NCBI GenBank assembly: GCA_003427395.1
Contig: BFEA01000016.1
Span: 2,492,313 to 2,556,312, forward strand
Direction of reading: 5' to 3'
Origin: Chara braunii
Taxonomy: Eukaryota; Plantae; Charophyceae
Length of the DNA: 64,000 nucleotides
Shown here: one piece after another, positions 8,121 to 38,300 of the stretch
How the letters are laid out: every line of letters begins with the position of its first letter
Numbering within the stretch: the first letter of the stretch is position 1
Position numbers and translations under genes: made by a program
The notes under the pieces: generated by a model
What the model was told of the DNA's origin: nothing
Seen by the model: only the letters and a program-made list of their open reading frames with translations
Database searches by the model: none

Positions 8121-8143
8121 TCTTTTGTGTCCCCCACTACTTC

Positions 8144-8290
8144 CTTTTTTTTTTATTTTTTTATTAAGGCCAGAATAGATCTATTAGGTAAGGTGTTAGG
8201 AGCATCCTCTCCTATTACACCTAGGATTGGCTGCTCCATCTATTAGTGGGGAGCTGCAGCTGCTGGAAACCAGGTCCAGCGTCCCTCATA
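8144..8290 (-). mobile_element. Second related LINE/SINE 3' tail
   Basis: Shares CCACTAATAGATGGAGC and GAGGATGCTC motifs and an AATAAA/A-tail with the tail at 6653-6800. Confidence 0.55.
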
Positions 8291-14808: not shown

Positions 14809-14862
<54 letters not shown>

Positions 14863-16149: not shown

Positions 16150-16163
16150 TTTGCGGCCACCTG

Positions 16164-16536
16164 GCAGACTAGGATTTTAATCACGCAGCGGGTGCTACTA
16201 ACACGTTCCCTTCATGCGACTTGAGCCTGCCCGTGTTATTCACAGTGGTCCCACTGCAGCGCGCCTTGTTAGTAGTGCGCTGCCGGCGAGCTCACACAGA
16301 ATGCTAGGCTAAATGTTCTGTCACCTCACGGATTAGGAGATCAAGGACTTATAAACTAATCGCTTTCGAGTGAAAGTTTTTCCCTGCCGAAGGGCTTGAT
16401 GAAGCCGCTTACCGCCGGTTCTAAAACCCTATATAGCAAGGTTTGGGTTACTTCTCGGCGAAGGTCTGTTCTGTCTCCCTCCCCATACATATGACTACAC
16501 AGATAAGGGCCCACACTTTAGCAAATCACGAACTCA
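16164..16536 (-). repeat. Inverted copy of the 3' internal segment (34973-35345) of the adjacent Gypsy element
   Basis: Reverse-complement match over ~373 bp with scattered substitutions. Confidence 0.93.
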
Positions 16537-17593
16537 GTTGCTGATAGTAAAAGGAAATATGACGAATTCGTATTTGGGATAGTTGGCAAAGTATCAAGGT
16601 TAGCTGAGTTAGCCTCGTGCCCTGTACTGGTAGACTGAGTCAGAGGCTGTCTGTGGTGGGAACTTTCGCCGTTCTGCTCCTATGCCCGGTGAAACAACTA
16701 TGACTTTTATTCATAAAGAAGAAAAGAAAAAAAAAACCTGCATGACTTTCTCTCTTGTAAGAATGACTAGAGACGGGGGCAACTGATGAGGTGGAAGAGA
16801 GAGAGGGAAGCACATGGTGGATAGTAAAGTTTTCTGCAAATGGTGAGTTCCCTGCACGAAAGAGAATGAACTAGTGAAGGGATAATGAGGTGGGTTATGC
16901 TGCATCACCTTGAAAGCAAAAGAAAGGAGGGAATACTCAGCACTCGTGCAAGATGAGACTCCTACAAAATACACCGAACATTACCCAAATCTAGTCAAGT
17001 GAGCAGTGTAACGTGATGCTGTTAAGTGGGCGGCGAATCAGTTAGTGTATAATCAGTTGTTTGATTAAGCATTCCGTCGGAACTCTCAAGTGCCAGGTTC
17101 TAAACTTCTAGTCAGTGAACAGCAATGACATCCAGCAGTTCGTTGTCCATTGTTTAGTAGCTCATCACCCTGCAGGTTTCAAGCAAAACAGTCGGCCCTC
17201 AGATCAGTGCTTAGATCAATATTCGAAACAATACTCTGGACCGTACTCAGAATGGTGCTCAGGCCAATGCTCAGCAATGTTCGGCCCTCAATCAACAATT
17301 AATCTTTCTTTCTTTTCTTTTATTGTATAATTTTTCATCAACCAGTCAACTATCAGACAGCGCTCCGGAAACGGGACTCAGGCAACTAGTCTTAGACAAT
17401 TCGACTCGGTTTCAGACAAATCAAGCTCAGACTGGACTTGAACAACCCTCCACAGACACAGGTGGAAGTCTGACGGGCTGACAAATGTCTCAGCGAGCTC
17501 AAGCTATCTCTCAATTTGAATGATGGCAGGCAAAACCAGTTACACTTGATTTTCAATTTCTGCATACTTAGGTTCAAACACGGCGACGAAAAC

Positions 17594-17839
17594 ATGAAAG
17601 GTAGTGAAGTGCTAACTGTTAAGTGCAGCTCTGTCAGAGATAAGGAGGAGGGATGGGAAAAAGAAGCATACAAAGACATGGAACTACATAGAAAAGTTCA
17701 ACTTGAGCATGCAATTCAGATGGTGAAAGGTGAAGTGTACATTGAGTACGTGATATATTTCTACGGACTCGACGGTGAAATACACAGTATCGGTTCTTCG
17801 CTAGAAAGGGTGGAACAGGCCAGAGCAAAATTCGCTTGA
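17594..17839 (+). CDS. LTR-encoded unknown protein, family X member 1 (81 aa)
   Basis: ATG-to-stop and open in both LTRs (36419..36664). Aligns with X2, X3 and X4. Confidence 0.7.
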   Translation: MKGSEVLTVKCSSVRDKEEGWEKEAYKDMELHRKVQLEHAIQMVKGEVYIEYVIYFYGLDGEIHSIGSSLERVEQARAKFA

Positions 17840-18591
17840 GCTAGTAGTATTCAAACAACCATTTCCAGAGCTCTACCAACATCTAAACAGAAGCTATTTG
17901 CAGTTTCTCCTGCGGTACGAAGACACGAGGATTCACGGTTCAATGTATCAGACTGTGTCCAGTGTATCCGACGACATTCAGTGGATATCAAGAGCGGTAT
18001 TCAGTACCCAGAACTGTACTCTGAACGGCATTCAGAGCAGTTCTCAGGACAGTACCTGGGACGGTACCCGAGACTGTACTCTGAACTGCACCTAGAACTG
18101 TACTCAGAGCAGTTCTCGGNANANTACTTGGAACAACACTCAAAACAAGTACTTTGAACGGTGCTCAAAGTAGCGTTTAATTTGTGGATTCAGTCACTGC
18201 TCAGTCTGGGTTTAATCAGCGAACAGCCAATTCTAACGATGTCAGTCATTCATTAGCAAGTAATCTGTTTCTGGAATAGTAAGCAGCCAGCCTCCGGAGC
18301 AATAAGCAATCAATTTTCAAGACAGCAACGTCAGTTTCCTGATCAGCCGCTACTAAACTTTCGGGTCAGCAATCACTCAGTCTCATAGTCTGCATAAGGA
18401 GACAGCAGTCAGCCATCAGTCCTTAGCAATCAGTCATTGACAATCGGTCATCAGCAATCAGTTAGTAACCGGTTAGCAACTATTCAGCGGCCAACCCAAC
18501 AATTTACCCAATAGCCCTTTCATGCTCAAATCACCCAAAAGTCACCCGTCTCGAGTCCAGTAAGCTGATGTAGGGAGAATTCGGTGAGGAT

Positions 18592-18903
18592 ATGGAGGGC
18601 AGCAACACAATTAGAGTCTCCTGCTCTCTGTATCAGGGCACTGCAGAGACATGGAGGGAGAGTGCAGTTGAGGAATACAATCAGCAGACTACTATGACGA
18701 TGGAACATGCACTGGCCCTCGTGAGGGATCATACTAGAATCGAGTACACATACTACTTGCACGATAAGAACGGCAAACTAAGGGATCATACTAGAATCGA
18801 GTACACATACTATTTGCACGATAAGAACGGCAAACTATGTGCTCCCATAACTTTTGTGGGTACTATTGAGGAAGCAAGGAGCACTGTTGGCAGCCACCAG
18901 TGA
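18592..18903 (+). CDS. LTR-encoded unknown protein, family X member 2
   Basis: ATG-to-stop and open in both LTRs. The 5' copy has an in-frame 57-bp duplication. Gapless alignment with X1 apart from that duplication. Confidence 0.7.
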   Translation: MEGSNTIRVSCSLYQGTAETWRESAVEEYNQQTTMTMEHALALVRDHTRIEYTYYLHDKNGKLRDHTRIEYTYYLHDKNGKLCAPITFVGTIEEARSTVGSHQ

Positions 18904-19028
18904 GCGTTCTGTCTTTGAACAAGAACAACTCGCCTATCCAGACGTTCAGTAATCAATTCAGCAACCAGTTTAGTATTCAGACCAGCGATCAGGTCACAGA
19001 AAGTCAGCAAACAGGAGACACCACACCC

Positions 19029-19610
19029 ATGAGTGCGGTCCAATCATTCCTGGTTAGCGAGGCAGTGCTGACCAATCTCAATCAGATTCCATGCAAAGAG
19101 GCATTCCGCTATCAGTATGCTAGCGTCATTGGTTTCAGACAAGGAGATCTGTCAATCTTCGTTGTCCTGACCAGTTTCGCTAATGGCACTATCTATGATC
19201 TGAGGCTGTATTCAAAGAAGGGCAAGGAGGCTCATGAGCATTTTGATCCGGTCTGGATCTCGACCAACAAATACCTCGAACGGAAGGAGAGGGAGCTCAA
19301 TGAGAGTGGTGCTACACTGATCCGCAGTTTTGCGCCGATGCTTTATACTGACTATCCTAGGCCTCCAGTCCCTTCTCTCCTCACAGATGGCACAACTTGG
19401 CTGGATCTGATTGGCTTGGCGAAGAGGTATATCTCTCCTGCAGTGATCGACGTTGAGGCATTGACCGAGCCCACCGAGTGTCCTTACCTCAGACGAGGGG
19501 TCTTTTCTGTGGACGGACTGCCTACTTTGTGGGAGGAGTTTTGCTCCATGGTCAACTTTCGTGTCATGTACCTCGGATGGTCATGCTCAGAGCTTGCAGG
19601 CTTCAAGTGA
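19029..19610 (+). CDS. LTR-encoded unknown protein, family Y member 1 (193 aa)
   Basis: Intact from ATG 19029 in the 5' LTR. Collinear with Y2 (F.YQY...VVLT.F..G.IYD.R.Y.KKG...PP.P...WL..I). Confidence 0.72.
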   Translation: MSAVQSFLVSEAVLTNLNQIPCKEAFRYQYASVIGFRQGDLSIFVVLTSFANGTIYDLRLYSKKGKEAHEHFDPVWISTNKYLERKERELNESGATLIRSFAPMLYTDYPRPPVPSLLTDGTTWLDLIGLAKRYISPAVIDVEALTEPTECPYLRRGVFSVDGLPTLWEEFCSMVNFRVMYLGWSCSELAGFK

Positions 19611-20166
19611 CTCTTTGTCACGAGGCCTCAATCTCAGATTGTACGTGGGCGTGGATCACGGCACCAGAGACGAACAGTGAAAAGAGAGACCGAGAGAGAC
19701 TGACCAGAGGGATGAGTGAGGACTCTTGAGAGGTGCTGACCATGCTTGTCTATGTGTACTTTCTGAGATTATTATGAGTTCTCATTCATCCTTCATACAT
19801 TTGATCTTGACTTTGCTCGGGTCAGTCTGTCTTGTCTCTTGTATTGTTCTTGTTTTGATGATTGCATTTGTGGACAATTCTGTCACAGTTTTCAAAATCA
19901 GATTGACATATTTGATGTATGCATAGCACCTCATAATTTTTATGTTTATTTATTTGCATGAAGTTCAACTGTTCTGAATCAAAATAAAAGATTCATAAGA
20001 CCGGGGTCCGGCGAAGGGTCTCGCTCGAAGCCGGACGCACACAACAGGAAGGGATTTGCATTATTTAATCTATTTATTTATTGCAATCAGATACAAAATT
20101 ATGCGTAACAACCTGTTGGTTTTCCGGTCGCCCGATGTGGCTCGACTGGAAAAAGTGCGACAAAAA

Positions 20167-20184
20167 TGGCGCCGTTGCCGGGGA
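20167..20184 (+). promoter_or_regulatory. Primer-binding site, tRNA-Asp type
   Basis: TGGCGCCGTTGCCGGGGA, 4 nt after the LTR-terminal CA. This is the PBS known from Athila-like plant Gypsy elements. Confidence 0.88.
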
Positions 20185-20499
20185 CATGAAAATATTTTCG
20201 TGTCCGGAACGAGCCTGGGTCATCATCATCTTTGAGTTTTGATTAGGGTGTGAGAATTGTTGACAACATTGTGAGCTTTCTATTGATCTTATTATTCTGA
20301 TTGAGTCTCGATTCTCCTGAAAGTCACGGCTGCTAACTGTGTCTTATTTCTTTCTTGTGTGAGGTACCACACTGGACTGGAGAAGGAGACTGATATATTG
20401 ACTGGAGAAGGTTTGAATTCAGGTATGCCTCATGAGCCTATGATGTCTTGTGAACACTTAGAATGGAAAGGAAGAATCGAGAGTACGGGGAATTTATTA

Positions 20500-20890
20500 A
20501 GAATGCTAACTTCTGATGCATTGAGAAAACTTTCGAAAGTAACTGCTTAAGGGATATTCCCTTATCAGTATGAGCATTGCTGGGTCTACCGTTCAGGCAA
20601 TTCGGCCATCAGCGTAGTGCTGACTCACTTCTTGGAGGGAGATATTTATGATATTCGTCCCTATGTCAAGAAGGGAGACTGTGATGACGGTGAGACCTTC
20701 AACTGGCTATGAGAAATTGCAATTCAGTCTCTATATGATGAGAAGACATAATTAATTAAACAGGATAAGAAAGTGGAATGGGGTTTAATGTCAGTGACAT
20801 ATGAGACTGTTCTAACTCCTCCCATACCTGACAGCTATTATGATGAGACTAACTGGCTGCCGATAATCAACATGGTATTGACAAAGGGAA
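20500..20890 (+). pseudogene. Family Y member 2 (three in-frame stops)
   Basis: Manual read-through gives GIFPYQYEHCWVYRSGNSAISVVLTHFLEGDIYDIRPYVKKG...TPPIPDSYYDETNWLPII. Confidence 0.8.
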
Positions 20891-20899
20891 AAAAAAACG

Positions 20900-21320
20900 G
20901 TGGTCATGAGAAGTAGAGAGATTTCAGCAGCAGAAATCAGACAGAGGAGGCTGAAATTCGGTAGAGGTTCAAGCCCAAGTCAGGAGGAAATTGAGCGTCT
21001 CCTAAAGTCACTGAACACTCTAAGTAAGAAAGGGGTGTTCTCATTTGAGGTTGTCAGATATGAGATGGTCGAGAGCGGACGGGAGCAGGAACGATTATAT
21101 GTACTGACATTCTGTTTCACAGATCTGGATGTGTATGATGTGAGAATCTATGCAGTATACGGGAAATGCTGGAGGTTTGCTGAAGAGGTAGTATTGAAAG
21201 AGAAAGAGAGGCTAAAGAAAGAGAACAAAAGTTTCACTGGTATGTCATGATAAAGTCCCTCCTTTATCTGATATTAATCTATCTAAAGACAACTGGTATG
21301 TCATGATAAAGTTTGCATGG
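20900..21320 (+). pseudogene. Family Y member 3 (frameshifted C-terminus)
   Basis: GVFSFEVVRYE...YVLTFCFTDLDVYDVRIY, then in a shifted frame PPLSDINLSKDNWYVMI. Confidence 0.7.
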
Positions 21321-21750
21321 AAAGTGAAGAGAGCTCAAGAAGAGTACTCTCAGTAGCCAGGGTGACTACTGTGAGGGGTAAACTCTATGAGGTGATAGGG
21401 TGTGATAATCCTTTTGTGATCCTGAGATATGAGACTTGTGAGAGGGGGACCATAATATTTCACATCCCAGTGGTCAAATTCCTGAGTACAGGCAGCGTGG
21501 ACGTAAGGATTTATGTACCGACAGTTCTAGAAAAGGAAGACGATTGTCTGAAGTATCAGACATGTGCTTATATTAATCTCATACGAATCAAGGAGTGACT
21601 TGAAAAGTTAAAGAGAAAGGTAACCTGGAGGAAAGAAGTAAGACAATTTGAGAGGCTTCCTGAATTCTCAATTACTAAGGGATTTGAAGGCAGGAGAGAC
21701 TGGATGCCTCTATTGGAGGCTATTGCTGAGATCGGTAGAGCAAGAGAAAA
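21317..21750 (+). pseudogene. Family Y member 4 (one in-frame TGA)
   Basis: FVILRYE...VVKFLSTGSVDVRIY. Read-through gives LEKLKRKVTW...DWMPLL, compared with Y2 LIKQDKKVEW...NWLPII. Confidence 0.65.
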
Positions 21751-21867
21751 AAACTCCACTGTGATGATAAAATCCCTACTTTTGAGTACCTTTGAACACA
21801 GATTCGAGATCCCTGATTATGTCCAACATGAGATCTACCTTTCAGATGTTGCTTATTATGATTAGCA

Positions 21868-22158
21868 ATGCCCAGTTTGACTGAACAGCTGACACTAAGA
21901 GTTGTGTTGGAAGGTAGAGTAGTGAACGTAGAGGGGACTCTTCGGATCTCTGACAGAAATCTTTCTACCCTGGATGAGTTTGGGTTTTTACAGCCTTTCT
22001 TAGATCGCATGAGAGATTCTGCTTTGAGAATTATCACGGACCAGACTGAGATAAGCTATCTGTTAAAGGTGGTGAAAGTGAGAAATACTGAGAGAGTATC
22101 ATATCACACTTTTCAGGAACGGGTCTTTCTTGCAAGAAGGATCAACAGTGGGCTGTAA
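21868..22158 (+). CDS. Unknown protein, family X member 3 (96 aa)
   Basis: Intact ATG-TAA; SALRIITDQTEISY...ERVFLARR. Confidence 0.7.
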   Translation: MPSLTEQLTLRVVLEGRVVNVEGTLRISDRNLSTLDEFGFLQPFLDRMRDSALRIITDQTEISYLLKVVKVRNTERVSYHTFQERVFLARRINSGL

Positions 22159-22161
22159 ACG

Positions 22162-22428
22162 ATGCAATTTGATTATGAGATTATAGACCTGACTCGATAT
22201 TTTATGATTCGGGGTACTATAAAGGGATATGATAGAAGACTGAGTAGGGATGATGAGAGAGAGTTGATTGAAAATTACATCGGAAGGCTGAGAAGGATTG
22301 CATTACCCTTGATCACTACCCAATCCATTATTGCTTATACCCTATATGTACAGAACTCTCAAGGGGTAGAGCAGACAAGAGAAGACAGAAACGAGCATGT
22401 ATCTCTTGCGAGAAGAGTGAGAGATTAA
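22162..22428 (+). CDS. Unknown protein, family X member 4 (88 aa)
   Basis: Intact ATG-TAA, 3 nt after X3; IALPLITTQSIIAY...EHVSLARR. Confidence 0.7.
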   Translation: MQFDYEIIDLTRYFMIRGTIKGYDRRLSRDDERELIENYIGRLRRIALPLITTQSIIAYTLYVQNSQGVEQTREDRNEHVSLARRVRD

Positions 22429-22487
22429 AGTGCAGAGAAGAAAAGGATAAGAGTGATAGAAAGAGAAGAGAATATCCGAGAAAGATC

Positions 22488-24100
22488 TATGGTCAAGATG
22501 GCAGGACGAGGAAGACCGAGTACATCAGAGGGGACCAATGAAGAGGCTTTGGTTGGAGTTATACGGGCATTGGTCGAGAGGGTTGAAAAGGGGGTCAGAC
22601 ATTGCAAGAGCAAAGAGGCAAGATGAAAGAATTCCCTGTTTCAGAGGACCCAAGGTTAATGACTTCTTGGACGAGTATGAACTATTTGGACTAAGTTATG
22701 GCTGGACAGACAAGCAACGACTTAAGCACCTCCTATCTTACTGTGATACTGACTCAAGACTGACAGTTCAAGAATTGATGGAAGGGGCTACTACCTGGGA
22801 AGAGATCAAAGAGAGACTGAAAAAAGAGTTCGAGAAAGATTCAGTTTCAACCACAACTAAGGATTTACTCAATATCAGAAGAGCTAAATATGACACTTTC
22901 AATGTTTTTCTTCAGACTTTCATCCGAACAGCAAGAAGAATTCCATATTTGGATGAAGCTCAGAGATGTCATATATTTTTGATAAATTTTACTGACACTG
23001 AAAGGCAGGCGGTTCTTAATCAAGCTTAGCACTATCCTCTTAGATGGGATGAAATGATTGCAATTATAAGAACTTTACCTACTGTCTCTTATAATAAATG
23101 GTCACTAGATCAGATCAGTACTTTGGCCAAGGATTGTGAAACTGAGAATGGAATAAATAGAGGAAGCAACCTGACTGCTGAGAACATTCTTCAAAAAGTG
23201 ATGGCAAACTTTATGCCTTCAAGGCCTGCAACGCATGCTGTGGATGACAGAGGGAAGAAAAAGGCGGAAAGTGAGGACGATGAAGACGATGATGATGACA
23301 ACGAAAATTATAGTAAGAAGGGGGATTTATCCAGACCCAAAAGGAATGGGAAGAATGGTGATAGAGGAAGTAGAGAGAAAAGAAAATATGATGAGCGTCC
23401 TAAGAGGAGTTTTACTTGCTACTATTGTGGCGAAGGGGGTCATACTACCACTTATTGCAAGTCTTTTAAGGAGGATGTAAGGAGTGGGGTGACAAAGAAA
23501 GATGCAATGGGCCATGTCTGTGATAGTTCATGGAATAAGTTGGATCCCAGACATCCGGGAGGTATGAGGCTTCTTGCTCTTAAACATGATGAAAAAATGA
23601 AGATTAAGAAGAAGAGAAAGACCAATATGAATGTTCATTTCCTCATTGGGGACTTGCCTAATGAGCTAGTACAAAGAGCAAGTGACTCTTATACCATGAT
23701 TGAGTTGTCTCTGCAGTCCTTAACACTGACAGAGTGTGAGCCTAGCGAGACATCTACAAGTGAGTCTCCATTGGGAGGGAATCCTACCTCTCAGAATCTA
23801 TCTGAATTAGTAGAGTCCTCTCCCAATGAAATGGCTCATCTCCTAGCTAACATGATGTCGTTCCATGGTGATCTACCCTCAGAACTTATCATGGAACCCA
23901 GTGTCAGGGTTGATGAAGTCAGGAACCACCAAACCCGTATGACACCTCAAATGATAGAAGAAAAAAAAAAAAAAAGGCTGATGAGTCACTTATTAACATC
24001 CTTGATGACCCTGAACAGGAACGCCCGCAAGAAAAGAATGAGCAGGGAAGAAAGAGAAAATTTATTCTCAAGAGTGATTTGGATGACGGGACTGTGATTT
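22488..24100 (+). pseudogene. gag: Gag of giant Gypsy element
   Basis: IPCFRG..VNDFLDEYE capsid-like start; knuckle CYYCGEGGHTTTYC; frameshift and stop present. Confidence 0.88.
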
Positions 24101-24302
24101 CTGATGTAATTACTAAAATGCTAGAAGAAACGGAAGTGACACTGTCTTTCAAGGAAGCCATGACGCTAACGCCCAAACTGAGAGAAGAGTTGAAAAAGTT
24201 AATTGAGAAGAAGAAATTGGAAGTTAACTATTTGGGGTCAGTCTTTCCCAACCAAGTGAATAGATCACTACCATGTTGTAAAATAAGATTTGCAACCATG
24301 GG

Positions 24303-24662
24303 TTGTGGGCACCTTACAATTCGTATAATCAAGTGAAGATTCTAGCCCTAGTAGATTCTGGGGCAGAGATGATACTTCTTTCACGAAGAACGATGGAAGC
24401 ATGTAATTTATCTATTGATAGACATGCACAAAATGTACTGAGTAATATTGCAGGAGAGTTGTTCGTGGCTGAATTTATTGATAATTTGTCTATCAGGGTT
24501 GGGACAATGTCTGAAGAGTTATTGGGTTTTGTAGTGCCGGATCTGAATCATGACTGTATTTTGAGAACTTCATTCTTGCATAGGATGGAGGCAGTCCAAT
24601 TTTTCAGTCATGAGGGGTCATCTTGGATCAGTCTACAGGATCCCGAGACTGCTCAAGAGTAG
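24303..24662 (+). pseudogene. pol: Aspartic protease domain
   Basis: ALVDSGAE catalytic motif. Confidence 0.88.
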
Positions 24663-25177
24663 ACCTTTATGGTCGGTTTGAAAAATGATTTCAAGCATCA
24701 ACTATCTGCTAATTGAATCAGGAGGGAGGAGTCTGCTGAAAGGATTATAAGACTAAAGGAGGAAGGAAAACGAGAAGCAAAAGAAGAGATTTCAGTGGGA
24801 ATCAATCAGGTTTCGAAAATGACAAAAGCCCTTGGTAAACTCGAGGATGAGGACGGGCAAATTGAAGCCTTCAAGAAAGTTGTAGAGACTGCTAAGGGAG
24901 GAAAGATGGAATTGAGATTTGCATCGACTCACCCTTTTTTAGGAAAATAGTCACTGGGTCAAAAAAAAAATACAAGCCCAAGGGGGTAAATAAAAACTCA
25001 GTGGCAGTCCTACTAGAGAAAGATTATGATGAAGCATTGAAAAAGGAGAGAAAAATTATAAGAGCATTGAGGAAATCAACAAAACTTGAGAATAGGGTCA
25101 CCAAAGAGAGGTTTGACACAATGAAGACAGACTCGGATCAGTTTATCCTGCCTAGAGAGAAATAATATATCTTCAGG

Positions 25178-26600
25178 ATGTGTCAGGAACTCTCTGGTGC
25201 TTTCTCCTTTAATGATGAAGAGAGAGGGCGATTGGACGTGGACATGATCAAGATGGCCAAGATTTGGACAGTTGATCATGTTCCATGGAATGATAGGCCA
25301 ACCAAGTATGCACTGAAGGAAGAGGCAGAAGTCGTAAAATATTATGACAAAAAGATTGCATCTAATGTTGCTGAACCTGTTGATGGACCGTATGTTAACC
25401 ACTGGTTTTGTTTTCGAAAACCAGGGGGCGGGCTAAGATGGATACAGAATCTTCAGAAGCTCAATTCTATGACGGTACGTGATGCAGGTAGTCTTCCTAA
25501 TGTTGACCTCCTCGCTGAATCATTTGCTGGTCGATGTATTTATTCTCTAGTTGACCTGTATTCTGGCTATGATCAGTTCTCTATTGATCTCACTAGCTGG
25601 CCAATGATTGTCATGCACACGCCAAGGGAACTTGTTCAGATGTGTATGGTACCTCAGGGCTGGACTAACGAAGTGGCAGTGGTTCAAAGGGATATGATCA
25701 AAGTCATGCAGGATATTTCTCTTGAGATAGTCAGTCCCTACATTGATAATAACCCTGTAAAAGTACCCCTGGTAAGAGATGAGACTTTGGTCGCAGGGGG
25801 AGTCAGAAAGTTTGTCTGGGAACATGCTGAAGGAGTAAAGATGGTCCTAGAGAGACTTCAGAAGTATAATTTGACTGTCAGTGGACCAAAGTCCCTTCTC
25901 TTCCAACCAGAAGTGATAATCTTGGGCTTCAGATGCTTCATCAAGGGTGGGAGTCCAGATCCCAAGAAGATAGACAAAATCTTGAACTGGCCTCTGCCTC
26001 TCAAACGAGTAACAGACGTCAGGAGTTTCTTGGGAGTCTGTGGATTCTGGAGGATTTTTATTCCTCATTTTGTTGCCCTTGCAAAGCCTCTGAGGGAAAT
26101 GGTAAGGCAAGGTTCTAACTTAGCATGGAATGATAAAAGACAAGCCGCAGCAGAAACATTGCAAGAAAAACTAAGAGATGGTGGAGTAGTGCTGAGAGTA
26201 CCATATTATGATGATGAGGAGACAAGACCTTTCATCATTGAGGCGGATGGAGGACCAGTTGTTGTGGGTGGAGTGCTTATTTAGAAGGATGAAAATGGGA
26301 GAGAAAGACCTATGAGATTTGAGAGCACAACCTTCAATTCTACAGAGAGAAGCTACACCCAATTCAGGAAAGGGTTACTGTCAATCATCCATAGCCTCGG
26401 GTGCTTCAGGCACTACGTTTTAGGAAGGAGATTCATCCTGAGGACTGATGCATCTGCTGTGATAGGTGCCATTAAAAAGCACCAACAAGTAGATCCAACA
26501 GTCAGCAGATGGATCGCCTTCATCTGGATATATAATTTTAAGCTGGAAAAGATCCCCACTGAGAAAAACAGAGCTGATGGCTTAAGCCGGATTGAGTGGC
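25178..26600 (+). pseudogene. pol: Reverse transcriptase and RNase H
   Basis: DLYSGYDQ, PQGWTN, degenerate YIDN(N), VRSFLG; RNase H motifs IEADG, FILRTD and NRADGLSR. Confidence 0.92.
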
Positions 26601-26839
26601 GAGAAGAAGAAGAAGAAGATGTGAATGAAACAATTGAAGAATCTGCCTATGTTGATAATTTCCTTAATGAAAAAGATGATGAGGATTATGAAGTGTCATG
26701 CTCCTACAAGTGGAGTCTGTGGCTAGAAGAGAGAGACAGCTGAGGAGAAATTCCGAGCGCATACGTTTATGAGTCGATTCCAGGAAAAGAAGAAGAATAT
26801 GAACCAAACGACTGGTATGCTAAAGTCAATGCAGCAGCA

Positions 26840-28230
26840 GTGGCTGCTCATGAAATTTGGGAAAGTTCAGGTTCAAAGGAAGAAGAAGAGAGTCAAAAGA
26901 AGGAAGAAGATATATTTTTCTTCTATGAAGAATATGATGAAAATTATCAAGAGATTGGCAAGAAGATGGAAAAAGAGCAGCTAAAAAAATATTATTGTAA
27001 AAATTCAAGAAAAAAATTCAGACTAAAAAGAGGACATATCTTTGTGGATGGTAAGGGAGGCCTACCTCCACTAAGAGTGGTCTGTGGTAAAGAGAGACAG
27101 TTAGAGATAATTGTTGCCCTACACGAGGGGGTTGTTGGTGGTCATAGGGCTGCTGAGGCAACTTACTCCAAGACTGTCAAACTCTACTTTTGGCCTGGCA
27201 TAAGAGACATGATTTTCAGATATTGTAAATCATGTGTCTTATGTCAGAAGAGGTCTACCACAAGGATGATTGAGCCTCTATTCCCTACAATCCTGGTAGA
27301 GCCAGGTAGCAGAGTACATCTGGATCTCATCATTATGCCTCCAGACAAAGGTGGGATCAGATACATACTAAACATGAGAGATAATTTATCTTGATAAGTT
27401 GAGGCAAAAACTCTGAAAAGGAAACGGCCGAGCAAGTGGCTGATTGGATAGAGGAAGTCTACCTCAGGTATCCTTTTATCAGAGAATTTGTCTCAGACAG
27501 AGGATCAAAGTTTCGAAACGAGGTTGTCAGAAGAGTTACATTCAGATTGGGTGTCAGGATTCGTTATGTGACTACTTACCATCCTCAAGCGAATGCGCCT
27601 GTTGAAAGAGGTCACAGAACCCTGAAGGATTCATTGGCTAAGTGGTGTGAAGAGGATCTCAGCAATTGGACAAAGGCATTAAGAGTTGTTGTATATGCTG
27701 ACAACATTACAGTCAAGAGAACTACTGGATATGCGTCATTTACTCTGTGGTATGGCCGATATACTACATTGCCAATTGAAAGTATTGTTAAGACATAGTC
27801 AAGTCAAGAAAGTGACAAAGAATATTCTATTTCAGAGTTTCTTCAGATCCGGGTGAAGCAAATATCAGAAGTTGATCAGGCAGTGATGAATGCTGCAGAA
27901 AGAATGACATCCAGCAGGCTATCAGATCAAGAAAAATTGAACAAAAAAAAATATATAAGAAAAGAGAAATTGAAGATTGGATAAGTTGTCCTTCTATTTC
28001 ACAATTCCCTTAAGACGCAATGGACTAAAAGATTGGAGCCCAGATGGCTTGGTCCCTACAAAATCACAGGGGAAGCAGAGGGCAAAGTTTATGAGATTTC
28101 AGAGATTGATGGATCCAGAGTTTACGACATGGTGTCAGGATCAACACTTCGTAAGTTTATTTTCAGAGATCCTGACTTGATCCCTACAGTGACTTCAAAG
28201 AGAGGAAAGAGAAGTCAGTCACCCAAGTAA
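26840..28230 (+). pseudogene. pol: Integrase (HHCC, DDE core, GPY/F)
   Basis: LHEG...GH...CKSCVLCQ; VHLDL; SDRGSKF; YHPQANAPVER; PRWLGPYKI. Confidence 0.92.
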
Positions 28231-30434
28231 GAAAACAGTCATAGAGGACTAAGAGAAAGAGTACAGTGAGATGCTGAGACGGCAAGACTCGGTTTCAGTG
28301 GAATCAGATCATTCATGCATAGTCAATTCAGCATTTCGGATTCAGCATTTCAGATTCAACATTTCAATTTCAGAGCTTCGATTTCGTCATTTCAGTTTCG
28401 GTTATTGAATTCCAGTTTTCAGTTTCAACATCTCGGCTTTAATATCTCAGTTTTCAGCAAGCCTTTTTATTCAGTATTTCAGCAAAACGACTAAATCAGG
28501 TCTTTTGATGCAGTGCTACAGTCGTTCCAAAAGTGTCAAGTCCCTGAGAGTGGGGAGATAACTGTAAAATCAGTTTCTTAAGTATTGACAGAGTGTCAAA
28601 GATTTGAGAAGCTCATGGCTGTGGCACATCAAAAGATATGATCAGTATTATCCTAAGATAAAGAGAAGAGCATGGTGGGCATGAGGAAGTTCAGTTCTGT
28701 CTGACTAAGAGTTATCAGCAGAAGGACTTCGAGTCTCTGAGTAAAATGTCCATCAAAGAGATTCAGATGAAAGCAGGTATAAAGAAGTTNNNNNNNNNNN
28801 NNNNNNNNNNNNNNNNNNNNNNNNNNNNNNNNNNNNNNNNNNNNNNNNNNNNNNNNNNNNNNNNNNNNNNNNNNNNNNNNNNNNNNNNNNNNNNNNNNNN
28901 NNNNNNNNNNNNNNNNNNNNNNNNNNNNNNNNNNGAAAAAAAAAAAAAAAAAAAAAAAGGGACCTCTCTGGGGCCAGCACTACGCATCCTTCTTGAGACT
29001 GAAGGGAGGTCTCTTGTAAGTGCTTGCTGCTGGTTATCATGTTGCTGTTCAAGTGTCTCTTGAGACTGACGGGACATCTCTTGAGAAATGTTTTTCCTGT
29101 TATGCGGGTATGGGCAGTCTGCTTGTGGGGAATTGTATGCTTGTCCGACTGCCTGTGCTTGGTATTATCTTCACTAACCTCAGATGTTGTTGATTGTCGG
29201 GGCCGGCCAGAGCTTTACCGCAGTAGGTTGCAATCTGGTGGGGTCAGCAGGTCCCCGACGCGAGTGTTGAATTCCGTAGTTTGACTGAGGCTAAGGCTCC
29301 GGGGGCCTGGCCCGTGAGGTTGGAAGGGGTCAGCTGGAACCCTACCGCAGTAAGAGGATGCAATCCAGTAAGGTTAGCCAGAGCCTTGAGTTGTAGTTAG
29401 ACCGGGTCCTACACTCGAAAATCTAGGCGGGGCAGCCAACGCCCTTGGCCAAAAACTGGTAGGTGAGCCGGTCCCTGACCGCAGTGGTCAAATCCGGGTT
29501 CGGGACAGTTTGGCTGACGGGACGTCTGCTGTCATAGGGTGGCCAGACCCATTATAGTCTGGGCGTCCTGGTGAGAGTGCCAAAGGGTTGTCATACTCGA
29601 GTAGTGGGTATGCTGGTCCTGACCTGGAGGTAGGTCAAAAGGGCTGTCAAGACAAATGGTCTGACTAGTCTTGACCTGAGGCGGGCCGAATGAGATATGT
29701 GAGACTGACGAGACGTCTGACGTTCCTGACCAGTGGTGGGTCGAAACCAAAATAATCAATAAATCCTGGGTATGAAGGGTTGTTATGTATAAATTATTTA
29801 TTATTATTTATTATTTTATTTATGGGTTTTATTTTGTTTACTTGTTACCTGGCTGATAACTGTTGTGGAGTCTGCTTGCTGGGGCATAGTTTGGTGTTTG
29901 TGAGACTTGCTGTTTTGGAGGTATACAAAGCCTCATTTGAAGTTCCCCAGACGAGAGAAAATGAAAAAGGGTTTGATATCCCTTTCCTATGTCTGAGAAG
30001 TTAAGGAGATGCCTCACTTAGACCAGAGAAAGAAGACGGGGTTTGGTATCCCCTGAGTCACTTGAGGAGTTGAGAAGATAACTCTCTCAGGCCAGAGAAC
30101 AGAAAAGAGGGTTTGGTATGCCCTATCCCCAGCATGGCGGACTGAACAAGTGTCCCAAGTGTTGATACCAGACTGACAATGTGTTCGATTTTCATCCAGG
30201 ATGATAGTTAGGGTAACTTTTCTCTGATATGAAGTTCAGACAGAGAACAAACCCCAGAAAGGCAAGAGATCGGAGCCAACAAGAAACATAATCCTTCTTA
30301 AATTTATTTGGTGGTCGACAAGCGGCCTGGTTCACGAGGAACCTGCATCCCCGGCCTTAAGGAAGCCAAACTCTCAGACCTTGGACGCTATGAGCTAGAC
30401 TGTGAACTGAAAATTTTATGGGCAATAATCAGAC

Positions 30435-31886: not shown

Positions 31887-34800
31887 GTTTCACGGCTATC
31901 ACCCCTGAGGAGGGTCATAAGCCCCCTCCTTGCCATCGGACGTGGGCACCCGACAGAGGTAGATCTACAGTCCTGTTTTAAAGTGAAAAGTGCGTCGTCG
32001 CAGTCGTGTTATGGGATCGCCGATTGCTCTATGTAAGTCGGTTCAGCGGGATTAGTGATTAGTAGTAAATTGAGTGCCATCCTGCAGGTGACTATTGAGT
32101 TTCAGACTCAGATGACTTTAGGAGGAATAAAATTTAACTTTAGATTATTCGTGCCTCCGAAAAGACTTTGTTAAGACTCCTTGTTTGGTACACAGGGAAA
32201 CACGGCCTCTCTGGACTCTATACAAGAGGACCTCCCGTGGATCTCTCAGCAGGTTTATTGAGGCTATCGCGCTGGGAGAAGGGATAGTGGCAGGGCGTTG
32301 AAGTTATCGGCTTTTGGTAGACTGCGCTCTAATAACCTGTACTTCTCAAGTGCAGCGCGAAAGCTGAAGTGTTTAGTTCTTGTACTGGCTATTACAGAGG
32401 ACTGTGGCTATGGCGTTGCATGGGTATAAACCTGGCTAGTGGTACCACCAGGCCCGTTGGAAGTCCGTGTCCGGGGAAGGGCCCTGGATTACCGTCATAC
32501 TCAACTATGACGGTGGAGATGAGTTGGTTCTGAAGATCAACGTGGAGGGAGCAAGAGAGGGAGAGATGCGGACTAACCCGAAGTTGCAGGACGCGATCTC
32601 GGTGGTGAGAGACCGAGCAGAGAGACGTTCTAGACGGGACGAAGTGATGACAAGGCTACGGATAACGGTGGCCTATCACGAGACTGAGACCTCGATGGAT
32701 ACAGCGGACTTGGAACAGGTCCACCAGGACAGAGACTCGGGAGGAGAAAGTGAGATGAGTGATGCGGATCGGGAGACGGATCTCAGGTCCTGGAACAGAC
32801 CAGGTAAGATCCAGAGGCATCACCGAGCCGCAGACCTGGTGGAAGGGGGACCCGAGGCCAGCTCTCGACAACTGACGTCGAGGGGCCGCGGGACGGAAGA
32901 GAAGCAGAGCAAGGGGAAAAGATAGGTCTGAGAAGACGCGCGAACGAGGGAAAAACGGGACTGAACCCGAAACGGAGAGACTAAGGCAAGGGCAGATGAG
33001 GGCACACGCATGACAGGTGGCGTGACCGGAAAAGTGAGAAGGGGGTCCACACAGAGAGAGAAAAAAAAAAAGAAGGTCAACGATAGAGAGAGGGACTAGA
33101 GCTGAGCGCACGTGGAGGGAGATGCTGACGTCAATCGGACTGCGATACATGACAAGCTACAGATAGTGGACATGTGGGCGAGTAAGTGTGAGCGAGCAAG
33201 GTGATTGAGTTGAGAGGTAGTTATGTGCGCGCACAGGCTGCACGTAGCAAAGCCAGAGGCCATGCGAGAAGATGGTGAGGTCATCGCGACCAACTGACAA
33301 TGTTGTATTGCCATGAAGGATGAGAGGGTGAGCTGATTTTTTTTGAGTGCAAGGGTGCTACACTCGATGTAAGAGGGTAGCGTTGGAGGTAACTCCTCTT
33401 CTCGTCTACTTTGGTCTGTGCCCTGATTGGAGAACTTTCATCTCAGAGCCTTTTGCTTGTCACCGCCAGCCTCCTGCTGATCAAAGAAGACAAGGGCACC
33501 GCGCGCAATCTGCAAAGGTAAAACGTGGCCGAAATAACGGTGCGCTGATCACTGTCTGCATGCTGGACAGAGAAGGGAGACATGCGAGAGGATGTGCTCT
33601 CACGTGAGTGCGTGACGCGCATGAGTAAAGAGAGACGGTTTGTATGAAAAAGTTTGTGTGCGAGTTCACTACTGACGTCAACACCTTTTCGCAACATGAA
33701 TCTTGATTCAACTTCAACGTGACATTCATCTGCTCTTCGCTTCTTGAAGTTCGAATAGTTGAGAGGGAACGTACAGGCTGCTCACTGTTACGAAGGGGGG
33801 GGGGGAAAGGCCATATCAAGTTTCGTTCTGAAGGATGAGAGGGATGAGCATTGGTTGTTGATTAGCGAGCTCGGTGATCAGTGCTGGCCTGATGAGATCT
33901 GACATTTGATAGGCTGAGGGCGTGAGCTCGATCTTTACACGCAAAGGCCAGTCATCTTCGATGGGAGTAATTGTGGCGAGACTGAAAGGACCAAACTGAG
34001 TGACAGCTAAGTATGCTTGAGTGTCAATAAGTCACACTGTTTAAGCAAATAGCTAGTTGACGATCATGATCTCTTGAACCTCAATAAAACCCTAGTTGTT
34101 GCTCTCGTGCGAAATCTTGATACGACTTATCTTCATTTTTGGTTCCGATTTCTTTAAGTCTCGCTCTTAGCGGAAGTATTCTCTTTCCTGGTTAATCACG
34201 CGACTCAGGTACTTGCCCTGCGATGACCCTGCCTGAAGGACTTCTGATCTACTTCTCGTAATTGCTCAGACTAAGTCAGTTGATGAATAAGAGAAAGTTA
34301 GCCCTGAGGAAAGTCGCCTATCTGCTGGCTAAGTATCTACTCCATGACGACTTGTAGTCAACTTCAATTTAGTTTATTTACCTGTATAATGGGCAATGGG
34401 CAAATGATCAAGAAAACGAGTGCACTTGTGGGGTTGAGGCAGTTCATGTCATGCAAACACTCAGTGGGACAGTCAACTGAGCTTGGGTAGGCCAATTCCC
34501 CTGTGAATCAGACTTCAAGTAATAAGTAAGTATGAAATAAAATCCTATAAATTGCTATGATATATTGAGACAATTTAGAGGGAAGCTTGAAGACGGAGGG
34601 CTTCATATCTGCGAGGCAAGTAATTGTGTGACTTCGTTATATTCCTGGGCGACAGTGTCTGAAGTCTCCTTGGGTGTGACCTATTGATAGTAGCTTTTGG
34701 AAGTATTCTGGGATAAGTTTTATAACCTGCTCGATGCTAAGCAGTATTCCCAGATGACTCGGGCTCGGACATCGCTCGAGTTTAGTTACAAAGGGAACTG

Positions 34801-35373: not shown

Positions 35374-38300
35374 TGCTGATAGTAGAAGGAAATATGACGA
35401 ATTCGTATTTGGGATAGTTGGCATAGTATCAAGGTTAGCTGAGTTACCCTCGTGCCCTGTACTGGTAGACTGAGTCAGAGGCTGTCTGTGGCGGGAACTT
35501 TCGCCGTTCTGCTCCTATGCCCGGTGAAACAACTATGACCTTTATTCATAAAAAAGAAGAAAAAAAGAACCTGCATGACTTTCTCTCTTGTAAGAATGAC
35601 TAGAGACGGGGGCAACTGATGAGGGGGAAGAGAGAGAGGGAAGCACATGGTGGATAGTAAAGTTTTCTGCAGATAGTGAGTTCCATGCACAAAAGAGAAT
35701 GAACTAGTGAAGGGATAATGAGGGGGGCTATGCTGCATCACTTTGAAAGCAAAAGAAAGGAGGGAATATTCAACATTTGTGCAAGATGAGACTCCTGCAA
35801 AATACACCGAACATTACCCGAATCTAGTCAAGTGAGCAGTGTAAGGTGATGCTATTAAGTGGGCGGCGAATCAGTTAGTGTATAATCAGATGTTTGATCA
35901 AGCATTCCGTCGGAACTCTCGAGTGCCAGGTTCTAGTCAGTGAACAGCAATGACATCCAGCAGTCCATTGTCCATTGTTTAGTAGCTCTTCACCCTGCAG
36001 GTTTTAAGCAAAACAGTCGGCCCTCAGATCAGTGCTTAGATCAATACTTGGAACAGTACTCTGGACCGTACTCAGAATGGTGCTCAGGCCAATACTCAGC
36101 AATGTTCGGCCCTCAATCAACAATTAATCTTTCTTTCTTTTCTTTTATTGTATAATATTTCATCAACCAGTCAACAATCAGACAGTGCCCCGGAAACGGG
36201 ACTCAGGCAACTAGTCTTAGACAATTCGACTCAGTTTCTGACAAATCAAGCTCAGATTGGACTTGAACAACACTCCACAGACACAAGTGGAAGTCTGACG
36301 GGCTGACAAATGTCTCAGCGAGCTCAAGCTATCTCTGAATTTGAATGATGACAGGCAAAATCAGTTACACTTGATTTTCAAGTTCTGCATACTTAGGTTC
36401 AAACATGGCGAGGAAAACATGAAAGGTAGTGAAGTGCTAACTGTAAAGTGCAGCTCTATCAGAGACAAGGAGGAGGGATGGGAAGAAGAAGCACACAAAG
36501 ACATGGAACTACATAGAAAAGTTCAACGTGAGCATGCAATTCAGATGGTGAAAGGTGAAGTGTACATTGAGTACGTGATCTATTTCTACGGACTCAACGG
36601 TGAAAAACACAGTATCGGTTCTTCGCTAGAAAGGGTAGAGCAGGCCAGAGCAAAACTCGCTTGAGCTAGTAGTATTCAAACTACCATTTCCAGAGCTCTA
36701 CCAGCATCTAAACAGCAGCTATTTGCAGTTTCTCCTGCGGTACGAAGACACGAGGATTCACGGTTCAGTGTATCAGTATCGGACGACATTCGGTGGATAT
36801 CAAGAGCGGTATTCAGTCCCCAGAACTGTACTATGAACGGCATTCAGAGCAGTTCTCAGGACAGTACCTGGGACGGTACCCGAGACTGTACTCTGAACTG
36901 CACCTAGAACTGTACTCAGAGCAGTTCTCGGGAAAATACTTGGAACAACACTCAAAACAAGTACTTTGAACGGTGCTCAAAGTAGCGTTTAATTTGTGGA
37001 TTCAGTCACTGCTCAGTCTGGGTTTAATCAGCAAACAGCCAATTCTAACGTTGACAGTCATTCATTAACAAGTAATCGGTTTCAGGAATAGTAAGCAGCC
37101 AGCCTCCGGAGCAATAAGCAATCAATTTTCAAGACAGCAACGTCAGTTTCCAGATCAGCCGCTACTAAACTTTCGGGTCAGCAATCATTCAGCCTCCTAG
37201 TCTGCATAAAGAGACAACAGTCAGCCATCAGTCCTTAGCAATCAGTCATTGACAATCGGTCATCAGCAATCAGTTAGTAACCAGTTAGCAACTATTCAGC
37301 GACCAACCCAGCAATTTACCCAATAACCCTTTCATGCTCAAATCACCCAAGAGTCACCCGTCTCGAGTCGAGTGAGCTGATGTAGGGAGAATTCGTTAAG
37401 GATATGGAGGGCAGCAACACAGTTAGAGTCTCCTGCTCTCTGTATCAGGGCACTGCAGAGACCTGGAGGGATAGTGCAGTTGAGGAATACAATCAGCAGA
37501 CTACTATGATGATGGAACATGCACTGACCCTCGTGAGGGATCATACTAGAATCGAGTACACATACTACTTGCACGATAAGAACGACAAACTATGTGCCAC
37601 CATAACTTCTGTGGGTATTATTAAGGAAGCAAGGACGACTGTTGGCAGCCACCAGTGAGCGTTTTGTCTTTGAACAAGAACAACTCGCCTATCCAGACGT
37701 TCAGTAATCAATTTAGTATTCAGATCAGCGATCAGGTCGCAGAAAGTCAGCAAACAACAGACACCACACCCATGAGTGCGGTCCAATCATTCCTGGTCAG
37801 CGAGGCAGTGCTGGCCAATCTCAATCAGATTCCATGCAAAGAGGCATTTCGCTATCAGTATGCTAGCGCCATTGGTTTCAGACAAGGAGATCTGTCAATC
37901 TTCGTTGTCCTGACCAGTTTCGCTGATGGCACTATCCCTAATCTGAGCTCGTATCTGAAAAAAAAGCAAGGAGGCTCATGAGCATTTTGATCCGGTCTGG
38001 ATCTCGGCCACCAAATACCTCGAGAGGAAGGAGAAGGAGCTCGATGAGAGTGGTGCTACGCTGATCCGCAGTTTTGGGCCGATGCTTTATACTGACTATC
38101 CTAGGCCTCCTGTCCCTTCTCTCCTCACAGATGGCACAACTTGGCTGGATATGATTGGCTTGGCGAAGAGGTATATCTCTCCGGCAGTGATCGACGTTGA
38201 GGCATTGACCGAACCCACCGAGTATCCTTACCTCAGACGAGGGGTCTTTTCTGTGGACGGACTGCCTACTTTGTGGGAGGAGTTTTGCTCCATGGTCAAC

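What the first reader, a model, noticed from the sequence alone, without database searches (positions are those of the whole stretch)
16539..22428. Giant Gypsy element carries an eight-gene cassette of two novel paralogous small-protein families in its LTR and leader
Seen: between the LTR start and gag, all on the sense strand, the order is X1, X2, Y1 (inside the LTR), PBS, Y2, Y3, Y4, X3, X4, gag. The paralogues are strongly diverged but keep column-wise motifs, which implies old duplications maintained by protein-level selection. Known: single extra ORFs occur in Ogre/Tat/Athila elements, but I do not recognise LTR-embedded multi-paralogue arrays or either family. Inference: an element-encoded accessory system, such as anti-silencing, transactivation or nucleic-acid chaperoning.
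Basis: partly seen in the sequence, partly recalled or inferred. Interest (0 to 1): 0.9.

Follow-up and report, generated by a model that had tools for sequence, protein, structure and literature searches.

The report
Algal retrotransposon with eight accessory genes
A large, repeated jumping-gene family, likely of the stonewort alga Chara, carries at least eight small extra genes from two protein families with no known relatives, which likely help it get past the host's silencing in the way that accessory genes serve complex retroviruses.

Summary
Largely confirmed. A decayed Ty3/Gypsy copy (LTRs 95% alike) has eight sense ORFs of 81-193 aa: X1, X2, Y1 in the LTR, and Y2, Y3, Y4, X3, X4 between the PBS and gag. 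Y is a real family. Its profile finds seven outside members: three Chara braunii gene models and four intact unnamed ORFs. Y1, Y2 and Y3 each have their own closer counterpart. X1/X2 and X3/X4 are firm pairs, but the link between the pairs is weak and X has no outside relative. Reads show the leader genes are as repeated as gag-pol. No Pfam, PDB or clear fold match; Y only loosely resembles acetyltransferases. Corrections: (1) the LTR genes lie upstream of a poly(A)-like signal, so there are likely two clusters at opposite ends of the RNA; (2) the LTR likely starts well before 16539 and may reach 10 kb; (3) X1 is subfamily-limited; (4) a ninth ORF (Z) lies after pol. Expression and function are not shown. 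Best guess: trans-acting counter-silencing proteins made from spliced RNAs. New variant of a known kind.

The parts
16164..16539 (-). Inverted copy of 34970-35345, joined to the 5' LTR remnant; likely a rearranged piece of the element's own 5' LTR
   Evidence: 358 of 376 identical, the same divergence as the LTR pair
16539..20162 (+). 5' LTR (preserved part), ends in CA
   Evidence: Direct repeat of 35374-38916, 172 differences in 3530 columns. Other copies continue with ACA and then PBS or unrelated flank (loose ends)
17594..17839 (+). ORF X1, 81 aa, in the LTR; limited to a subfamily at DNA level
   Evidence: Depth bin over its 3' LTR copy is 274/596, against 3,300-13,000 and more over X2-Y1
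18592..18903 (+). ORF X2 in the LTR (57-nt tandem duplication in this copy)
   Evidence: model pLDDT 72, beta-alpha-beta-beta-alpha (made from the 3' LTR copy)
19029..19610 (+). ORF Y1, 193 aa, in the LTR
   Evidence: 120/141 identical to part of GBG80537.1, 82/122 to GBG69355.1
19983..19988 (+). AATAAA after a T-rich tract; likely poly(A) signal
   Evidence: Only AATAAA in this LTR copy; 43% T in 19720-19982; function inferred
20167..20184 (+). Primer-binding site (tRNA-Asp type, recalled)
   Evidence: Sequence; no tRNA gene in the window to test it
20421..20428 (+). Candidate major splice donor overlapping the Y2 start codon
   Evidence: Rank 3 of 645 GT sites under a crude recalled matrix; no spliced read seen
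20425..20916 (+). ORF Y2, three in-frame stops in this copy
   Evidence: 48/126 identical to intact P0007
20906..21250 (+). ORF Y3, 114 aa, overlaps the Y2 stop by 11 nt
   Evidence: 62/105 identical to intact P0006, 52/80 to part of GBG64722.1
21317..21865 (+). ORF Y4, one in-frame stop; most divergent Y
21868..22158 (+). ORF X3, 96 aa, starts 2 nt after the Y4 stop
22162..22428 (+). ORF X4, 88 aa, starts 3 nt after the X3 stop
22489..28230 (+). gag-protease-RT-RNase H-integrase, broken by many stops and frameshifts
   Evidence: Pfam Retrotrans_gag, Asp_protease_2, RVT_1, RT_RNaseH, Integrase_H2C2, rve, and a weak DUF4100 hit; breaks listed
28546..28562 (+). Polypurine-tract-like run followed by TGT at 28563; candidate true start of the 3' LTR
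   Evidence: no such tract directly before 35374; inference
32410..32925 (+). ORF Z, about 170 codons with one stop; likely ninth accessory gene, not detectably X or Y
   Evidence: 114/161 identical to the N-terminus of GBG80537.1, whose gene model joins it to Y1
35374..38916 (+). 3' LTR (part matching the 5' copy); X1 and X2 copies open, Y1 copy with a frameshift and a stop; last 3 nt missing

Best explanation
This is a decayed copy of a highly repeated Ty3/Gypsy family, likely of Chara, that carries at least eight small accessory genes of two duplicated families, which are likely made from spliced sub-genomic RNAs and likely act in trans to counter host silencing of the element. Shown: the ORFs, their order, Y paralogy with outside members, the X pairs, and repeat depth of the leader genes close to that of gag-pol. 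Inferred: Y2-Y3-Y4-X3-X4 sit in the 5' leader of the genomic RNA, while X1-X2-Y1 (and Z) lie in or near U3, at its 3' end, and use the LTR poly(A) signal. Inferred: gag follows 2.3 kb with 57 ATG triplets, so scanning cannot reach it; a donor at 20423, just past the PBS, would join the RNA's 5' end to sites in front of the later ORFs, as in complex retroviruses. Inferred, weakest: the products are soluble alpha/beta interaction domains, and the duplication and divergence reflect an arms race with host chromatin or small-RNA silencing. Odds: real selected genes about 0.9; splicing as the main expression route about 0.45; counter-silencing as the main role about 0.4.
For: Y profile: 8 hits at E<=0.001 among 1.84 billion representatives. 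Seven are full-domain (E 4e-37 to 1e-13); the eighth is an unrelated mTERF repeat. Y1, Y2 and Y3 each have a closer outside counterpart (38-85% identity); the Y1 and Y3 groups have starred support. Only 4 stops in 1001 codons although paralogues are 26-36% identical; neutral drift to those identities gave 1.5-3.7 stops per aligned stretch, and substitutions were more conservative than the neutral mean in 7 of 7 pairs. Summed contig depth median 5,278 over the leader genes against 6,584 over gag-pol. The coding X1 bin stands above its non-coding flanks (274/596 against 38-124/93-285). 84% of the PBS-to-gag stretch is coding. No transmembrane stretch (highest 19-residue hydropathy 1.31). In Arabidopsis, accessory TE proteins were predicted to have more host contacts than core enzymes (PMC13547354, passages).
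Against: No transcript evidence. Two RNA runs gave 35 and 57 reads; a third gave 2586 reads, equal on both strands and tracking DNA depth (Spearman 0.79 and 0.94), as DNA carry-over would. No spliced joint was listed. Acceptors before the ORFs score no better than gag-pol background. LTR-to-LTR changes in X1, X2 and Y1 are 17 synonymous and 33 not (P=0.19 against neutral), and 9 of 29 listed copy-specific differences are synonymous; this is expected after insertion but gives no dN/dS support. The conservative-substitution excess reached 5% or less in only 3 of 7 pairs, and outside ORFs are open by how they were called. X has no outside relative. Nothing here tests counter-silencing itself.
Confidence: 0.42

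Rival explanations
1. The genes are real, but the leader is read as a polycistronic RNA by stop-restart translation, and X or Y proteins regulate the element's own RNA (translation, export, packaging), as caulimovirus TAV or retroviral Rev do.
For: Stops and starts are coupled: Y2/Y3 overlap by 11 nt, Y4-X3 gap 2 nt, X3-X4 gap 3 nt. Gag is the sixth ORF after the PBS. Y3, X3 and X4 are basic (pI 8.1-9.5). Cap-binding or C-terminal domains of bunyavirus-type L proteins recur among weak Y fold matches (Z 4.3-4.9). Polycistronic mRNAs are reported in green algae (PMC7896298, search listing only).
Against: No ATG depletion in the upstream ORFs, so plain leaky scanning is unlikely. Fold matches are below the level that means anything. 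Half of the proteins are acidic.
Confidence: 0.27
2. Y is a diverged GNAT-type acetyltransferase (or a catalytically dead derivative) that the element captured and multiplied, acting on histones or host defence proteins.
For: The Y1 model has a beta-alpha-beta-beta-beta-alpha-beta core. 29 of 50 VIA rows carry acetyl-/acyltransferase, GNAT or GCN5 titles, including HAT1 (Z 4.9, rmsd 3.8, 87 aligned). Foldseek's best PDB rows are also acetyltransferases (E 0.03-0.08).
Against: Best Z is 5.7 and belongs to a curli regulator (rmsd 3.3, 84 aligned); the tool rates Z under 8 as a common arrangement. The model has mean pLDDT 55. No GNAT family in Pfam or NCBIfam for any of 9 members. The acetyl-CoA loop motif (recalled as Q/RxxGxG/A) is not seen in the alignment.
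Confidence: 0.13
3. The proteins help the element or its particles move between cells or nuclei (plasmodesmata, giant multinucleate cells), in place of an envelope gene.
For: The element has no env-like ORF. Such roles have been proposed for plant extra ORFs (PMC7264820, main text read).
Against: No transmembrane stretch and no similarity to viral movement proteins in the viral fold search. Eight paralogues fit host-target diversification better.
Confidence: 0.1
4. The ORFs are passengers: captured or duplicated DNA that the family carries without benefit.
For: No expression shown; LTR-to-LTR changes look neutral; X1 is limited to a subfamily.
Against: Open frames at 26-36% paralogue identity, shared invariant columns across 9 members, intact outside orthologues, and no cellular source gene among 1.84 billion representatives.
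Confidence: 0.08

Closest known systems
Extra ORFs (eORF/aORF) of plant non-chromovirus Ty3/Gypsy elements: Athila, Tat, Ogre, Retand (PMC6317226 passages and supplementary file 3; PMC7264820 main text)
   Same: Large Gypsy element with long LTRs and extra sense ORFs before gag and after pol; tRNA-Asp-type PBS as in most Athila (PBS identity recalled); extra proteins of unknown function.
   Different: Ogre is described with 1-2 extra ORFs (PMC6431247 passage), and the survey counted only ORFs of at least 250 codons, so 81-193-aa genes would be missed. Here there are eight or nine small ORFs in two paralogous families, three of them inside the LTR. No aRH, plant mobile, Transposase_28 or Athila ORF1 domain was detected.
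Accessory genes of complex retroviruses (HIV nef, MMTV sag, foamy virus tas/bet in or next to U3; recalled) and foamy-like fish endogenous retroviruses enlarged by accessory ORFs (PMC6431247 passage)
   Same: Many small non-structural genes, some in the LTR upstream of the poly(A) signal; a strong splice-donor-like site just after the PBS.
   Different: A Gypsy retrotransposon without env; five genes lie before gag; no sequence or fold similarity found; splicing not shown.
Giant Burro Gypsy elements of planarians (PMC6431247 passages)
   Same: More than 20 kb in total, with extra coding capacity thought to act on the host.
   Different: Burro packs recognisable domains into one polyprotein; this element has separate small ORFs with no recognisable domain.
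VANC anti-silencing proteins of VANDAL/MuDR DNA transposons (PMC13547354 passages)
   Same: Functional analogy only: transposon-encoded, lineage-specific accessory proteins that counter silencing.
   Different: DNA transposons and a MAIN-like fold; no similarity to X or Y was detected, and no such activity is shown here.

Membership tests
Ty3/Gypsy LTR retrotransposon | gag, protease, RT, RNase H, integrase in that order | tested here: met
   Pfam hits in order along 22538-28227
Ty3/Gypsy LTR retrotransposon | Two direct LTRs with a PBS after the first | tested here: met
   95.1% identical repeats; PBS 4 nt after the terminal CA
Ty3/Gypsy LTR retrotransposon | PPT directly before the 3' LTR and a target-site duplication | tested here: inconclusive
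   No PPT before 35374 and no TSD; a PPT-like run lies at 28546; both ends of this copy look damaged
Chromovirus | Chromodomain at the integrase C-terminus | tested here: not met
   No chromodomain hit in the integrase C-terminal frames 27799-28227
Tat/Ogre/Retand | Additional aRH domain in the polyprotein | tested here: not met
   Only RT_RNaseH was found; an acidic linker separates it from the integrase zinc finger
Athila | tRNA-Asp PBS (72% of Athila, PMC6317226 file 3) | tested here: inconclusive
   PBS matches the tRNA-Asp type from memory only; no tRNA gene in the window
Athila | Athila ORF1 (PF03078) or env-like transmembrane ORF | tested here: not met
   No such Pfam hit in the ORFs scanned, and no transmembrane stretch in X1-X4, Y1-Y4 or Z
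Athila / Phygy / Selgy lineages | Placement in the RT-RH-INT phylogeny | not testable with these tools
   Reference domain sequences were not among the supplements held; metagenome RT hits were only 26-30% identical
GNAT acetyltransferases (for Y) | GNAT fold | tested here: inconclusive
   Best GNAT row Z 5.5, rmsd 5.0, 92 aligned, on a pLDDT-55 model
GNAT acetyltransferases (for Y) | Acetyl-CoA-binding loop motif (recalled Q/RxxGxG/A) | tested here: not met
   The loop after the third strand varies in length and sequence among 9 members; judged by eye
PC4/Sub1-like ssDNA-binding domain (for Y) | PC4 profile or fold match | tested here: inconclusive
   Motif likeness was recalled; no Pfam hit and no PC4 row among the listed fold matches
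Complex-retrovirus-type accessory genes | Expression from spliced sub-genomic RNAs | tested here: inconclusive
   Too few true RNA reads, no joints listed; donor strong but acceptors at background

The most novel reading that the evidence does not exclude
A charophyte Gypsy lineage has independently evolved a complex-retrovirus-like genome: LTRs of about 10 kb (from 28563), longer than the 6.5 kb cited for Ogre, and at least nine accessory genes in two spliced clusters, with Y a captured and multiplied acetyltransferase-like effector that keeps the element's chromatin open.
Probability: 0.15. Interest if true: 0.88.

Novelty: new variant of a known kind. Interest (0 to 1): 0.66.

Why it matters
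LTR retrotransposons are thought to need only gag and pol, and the role of their extra ORFs is an open question (PMC7264820). A successful, highly repeated family that keeps eight or nine small genes, duplicated into two families with no known relatives and placed on both sides of gag-pol, suggests a retrotransposon with the gene content of a complex virus. It supplies two new small protein families that can be tested for counter-silencing or RNA-regulating activity in a close algal relative of land plants. It also shows that surveys with a 250-codon cut-off would miss such genes, and that some Chara gene models labelled 'reverse transcriptase domain' are likely chimeras containing them.

Tried and rejected
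No whole genome was held, so genomic copies could not be collected. Word-based homologue searches found nothing for Y1 (83 candidates) or for the X alignment at similar or longer lengths (111 and 5852 candidates). No significant Pfam, NCBIfam, PHROGs or PDB-sequence hit for X or Y (X was scanned only against Pfam and PDB). ESM Atlas: no usable hit for Y1; the second search never got through. Fold searches: X best Z 5.5, nothing standing out; Y best viral match E 0.0017 to an unnamed 81-aa protein. X and Y profiles do not match each other (P 0.85), and Z does not match X (z 1.2 or less). The window's six frames hold no further X or Y copies outside the leader and the two LTRs. JGI metagenomes gave no Y1 locus and only distant RT loci, not used. 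No RNA holder was listed. A Y1-X2 complex prediction gave no answer. Splice acceptors before each ORF looked convincing by eye but scored at background, and ATG depletion was absent. A Y2-Y3 fusion broken at an A-run was considered; no indel was listed there among 12 of 13 shown, so it was dropped. The Chara genome paper is not held; I recall that it mentions unusually large Gypsy families, unchecked, and it or its supplements may already describe this family. Seven paper searches listed no description of these ORFs, judged from titles and abstract starts.
Full report
1. What is in the sequence. The stretch is the 5' part of a decayed Ty3/Gypsy element. 16539-20162 is repeated at 35374-38916 with 172 differences in 3530 aligned columns (K2P 0.051). 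A primer-binding site follows at 20167-20184. Gag, protease, RT, RNase H and integrase lie in Gypsy order from 22489 to 28230, broken by many stops and frameshifts. Y2 has three in-frame stops and Y4 one. X2 has a 57-nt tandem duplication only in the 5' LTR. The Y1 copy in the 3' LTR has a frameshift and a stop. Seven ATG-started ORFs of at least 80 aa on the sense strand compare with two on the other strand and a mean of 0.66 (maximum 4) in 300 resamples. 84% of the stretch from the PBS to gag is coding.

2. Are they two families? Y: yes. Pairwise shuffle z-scores are 23.1 (Y1-Y2), 9.7 (Y2-Y3), 9.2 (Y2-Y4) and 7.2 (Y1-Y3), but only 2.9 for Y3-Y4 and -0.5 for Y1-Y4. A profile of the four, run on 1.84 billion representatives, gave 8 hits at E<=0.001. 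One is an unrelated mTERF repeat. Three are Chara braunii gene models and four are unnamed intact ORFs of 121-161 aa on short ENA contigs, one with a second cluster member. Nine members align over about 130 residues with invariant F, D, R, Y and L columns, and most keep a proline-rich stretch and a late tryptophan. Y1 is 85% and 67% identical to two Chara models, Y3 59% to P0006 and 65% to a third model, Y2 38% to P0007. In the tree the Y1 and Y3 groups are starred and Y4 is a long branch. The duplications are therefore older than the split between copies. X: X1-X2 (z 17.4) and X3-X4 (z 13.4) are firm. The cross pairs are weak (z 0.3-3.2); the profile-profile score of 17.0 beats all 150 shuffles but has a probability of 2.4%. 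I put one X family at about 0.7. No outside X was found, by weaker searches than the one that found Y. X and Y do not match each other.

3. Selection. Between the two LTRs the three ORFs show 17 synonymous and 33 non-synonymous changes, not different from neutral (P=0.19), and 9 of 29 listed differences from the reads are synonymous (the tool showed 40 of 1743 rows, 29 of them in these ORFs). That is what a dead copy should show and neither supports nor refutes earlier selection. The evidence for selection is depth of divergence with open frames: 4 stops in 1001 codons among paralogues 26-36% identical. Neutral simulation to such identities gave 1.5-3.7 stops per aligned stretch even without indels. 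Substitutions were more conservative than the neutral mean in 7 of 7 pairs, but only 3 reached 5% or less. Outside ORFs are open by how they were called, and local alignment favours conservative pairs, so this is good but not formal evidence.

4. The family. Contigs of DNA runs laid at 82% give summed depth with median 5,278 over the leader genes and 6,584 over gag-pol, while single listed contigs have depth 4-24. The tool warns that this is no copy number, but it shows the leader genes travel with gag-pol in a highly repeated family. X2, Y1 and the LTR end are equally deep. 33148-37335, which includes X1, has depth 20-600, with X1's bin above its flanks. So X1 belongs to a subfamily or has diverged beyond 82% in most copies. 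The host is likely Chara braunii or a close relative, from the named homologues.

5. Corrections to the anatomy. (a) The only AATAAA in the LTR is at 19983, after a 43% T tract that follows Y1 and 180 nt before the LTR end. X1, X2 and Y1 are then likely in U3, which puts them at the 3' end of the genomic RNA and the other five at its 5' end. (b) 16539 is likely not the LTR start. The 376 nt to its left are an inverted copy of 34970-35345, which lies 28 nt before the second LTR copy. They are 95.2% identical, like the LTR pair, whereas listed contigs from other copies differ there by roughly 10-16%. There is no polypurine tract before 35374 and no target-site duplication, but a purine run followed by TGT stands at 28546-28565, just after pol. 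The LTR is thus likely at least 3.9 kb, and may start at 28563 (10.4 kb). An assembly gap at 28790-28934 and possible misassembly keep this open; I give the 10-kb reading about 0.4. (c) A further sense ORF, Z (32410-32925), is 114/161 identical to the start of GBG80537.1, whose model joins it to Y1, so the family likely has nine accessory genes.

6. Expression. Not shown. Three oligo-dT RNA runs (6-13% of each read) gave 35, 57 and 2586 reads on 18200-28780. The large set is equal on both strands (305 against 291 summed) and follows DNA depth (Spearman 0.79, and 0.94 on the second stretch), as carried-over DNA or diffuse transcription would. No spliced joint was listed. From the anatomy: gag follows 57 ATG triplets, and the ORFs are not ATG-depleted, so simple scanning fails. 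A donor-like site ranks 3 of 645 and overlaps the Y2 start codon, 255 nt after the PBS, where retroviruses have their major donor (recalled). Acceptors score at background with my crude, recalled matrix. The stop-start gaps of -11, 2 and 3 nt point instead to stop-restart translation. I give splicing about 0.45, stop-restart 0.35, internal promoters 0.2.

7. Structure and function. No Pfam, NCBIfam, PHROGs or PDB sequence match. No transmembrane stretch, so not env-like. Models from 4-5 sequences give X2 a beta-alpha-beta-beta-alpha fold (pLDDT 72) and Y1 an N-terminal beta-alpha-beta-beta-beta-alpha-beta domain (mean pLDDT 55). X has no fold match that stands out (best Z 5.5). For Y, 29 of 50 rows are titled acetyl-/acyltransferases, but the best Z is 5.7, to a curli regulator, and the CoA-binding loop is not conserved. 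This is a lead only. I commit to soluble trans-acting proteins that counter host silencing, because lineage-specific, duplicated, fast-diverging small accessory proteins of mobile elements and viruses often do so (general knowledge; VANC example in PMC13547354, passages). No result here tests it.

8. Comparison and novelty. Extra ORFs are known in Athila, Tat, Ogre and Retand, mostly after pol and of unknown function (PMC7264820, parts 1-2 of 3 read, the whole main text; PMC6317226, passages and supplementary file 3). That survey counted ORFs of at least 250 codons and gives sizes up to about 24 kb and LTRs up to about 5 kb; Ogre is cited with 1-2 extra ORFs and LTRs up to 6.5 kb (PMC6431247, passages). 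Rice Retrosat2 has LTRs over 3 kb and one orphan ORF (PMC3485330, abstract). The element fails the aRH test for Tat/Ogre and the chromodomain test for chromoviruses; its lineage could not be placed. Unchecked notes of this scan report single genes inside Gypsy LTRs of fungi and a moss, which makes the LTR position itself less unusual. What I found described nowhere in the seven searches named under Tried and rejected is an array of eight or nine small genes in two paralogous families on both sides of gag-pol. The Chara genome paper could not be read and may mention the family.

9. Verdict. Real feature; new variant of a known kind (retrotransposon accessory ORFs), with one firmly new protein family and a second probable one. 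Interest 0.66: unusual gene content and testable, but no expression, no function and an uncertain element boundary.

Noticed in passing
window 32410-32925 (+): ORF Z: conserved sense ORF after pol, 71% identical to the start of Chara model GBG80537.1, no Pfam hit; likely a ninth accessory gene.
   Followed up: partly
window 30438-30962 (-): Antisense ORF of 175 codons with an Arg/Gly-rich start and a Glu run, no Pfam hit; may be an antisense extra ORF of the same element.
   Followed up: partly
window 16164-16539 and 34970-35345: 376-nt inverted copy with the same 5% divergence as the LTR pair; suggests an inversion plus deletion at the 5' LTR, or a misassembly.
   Followed up: partly
window 33148-37335: About 4 kb with summed contig depth 20-600, between parts with depth in the thousands: a subfamily-specific segment that includes X1.
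   Followed up: partly
window 21229-21320: Y3 ends early relative to outside member P0006 (which runs on for about 45 aa); the same short end appears in GBG64722.1, and a 20-nt repeat 56 nt apart flanks the stop.
   Followed up: partly
window 38847-40819 (-): A different Gypsy gag (weak Ty3_capsid hit) and following frames end at the 3' LTR, which lacks its last 3 nt.
   Followed up: no
window 13139-16150 and 43963-46957: 3-kb direct repeat pair (86-93% alike) with arrays of a 144-nt unit; does not start with TG; type not determined.
   Followed up: no
window 47100-64000 and 1-2900: Several decayed LINE-like reading frames on both strands (judged by eye from translations), and a Gypsy gag-protease-RT fragment on the minus strand at the window start.
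   Followed up: no
P0003, P0005, P0009 (GBG80537.1, GBG69355.1, GBG64722.1): Public Chara gene models join Y pieces to RT pieces; likely chimeric predictions across nested elements rather than true fusions.
   Followed up: partly
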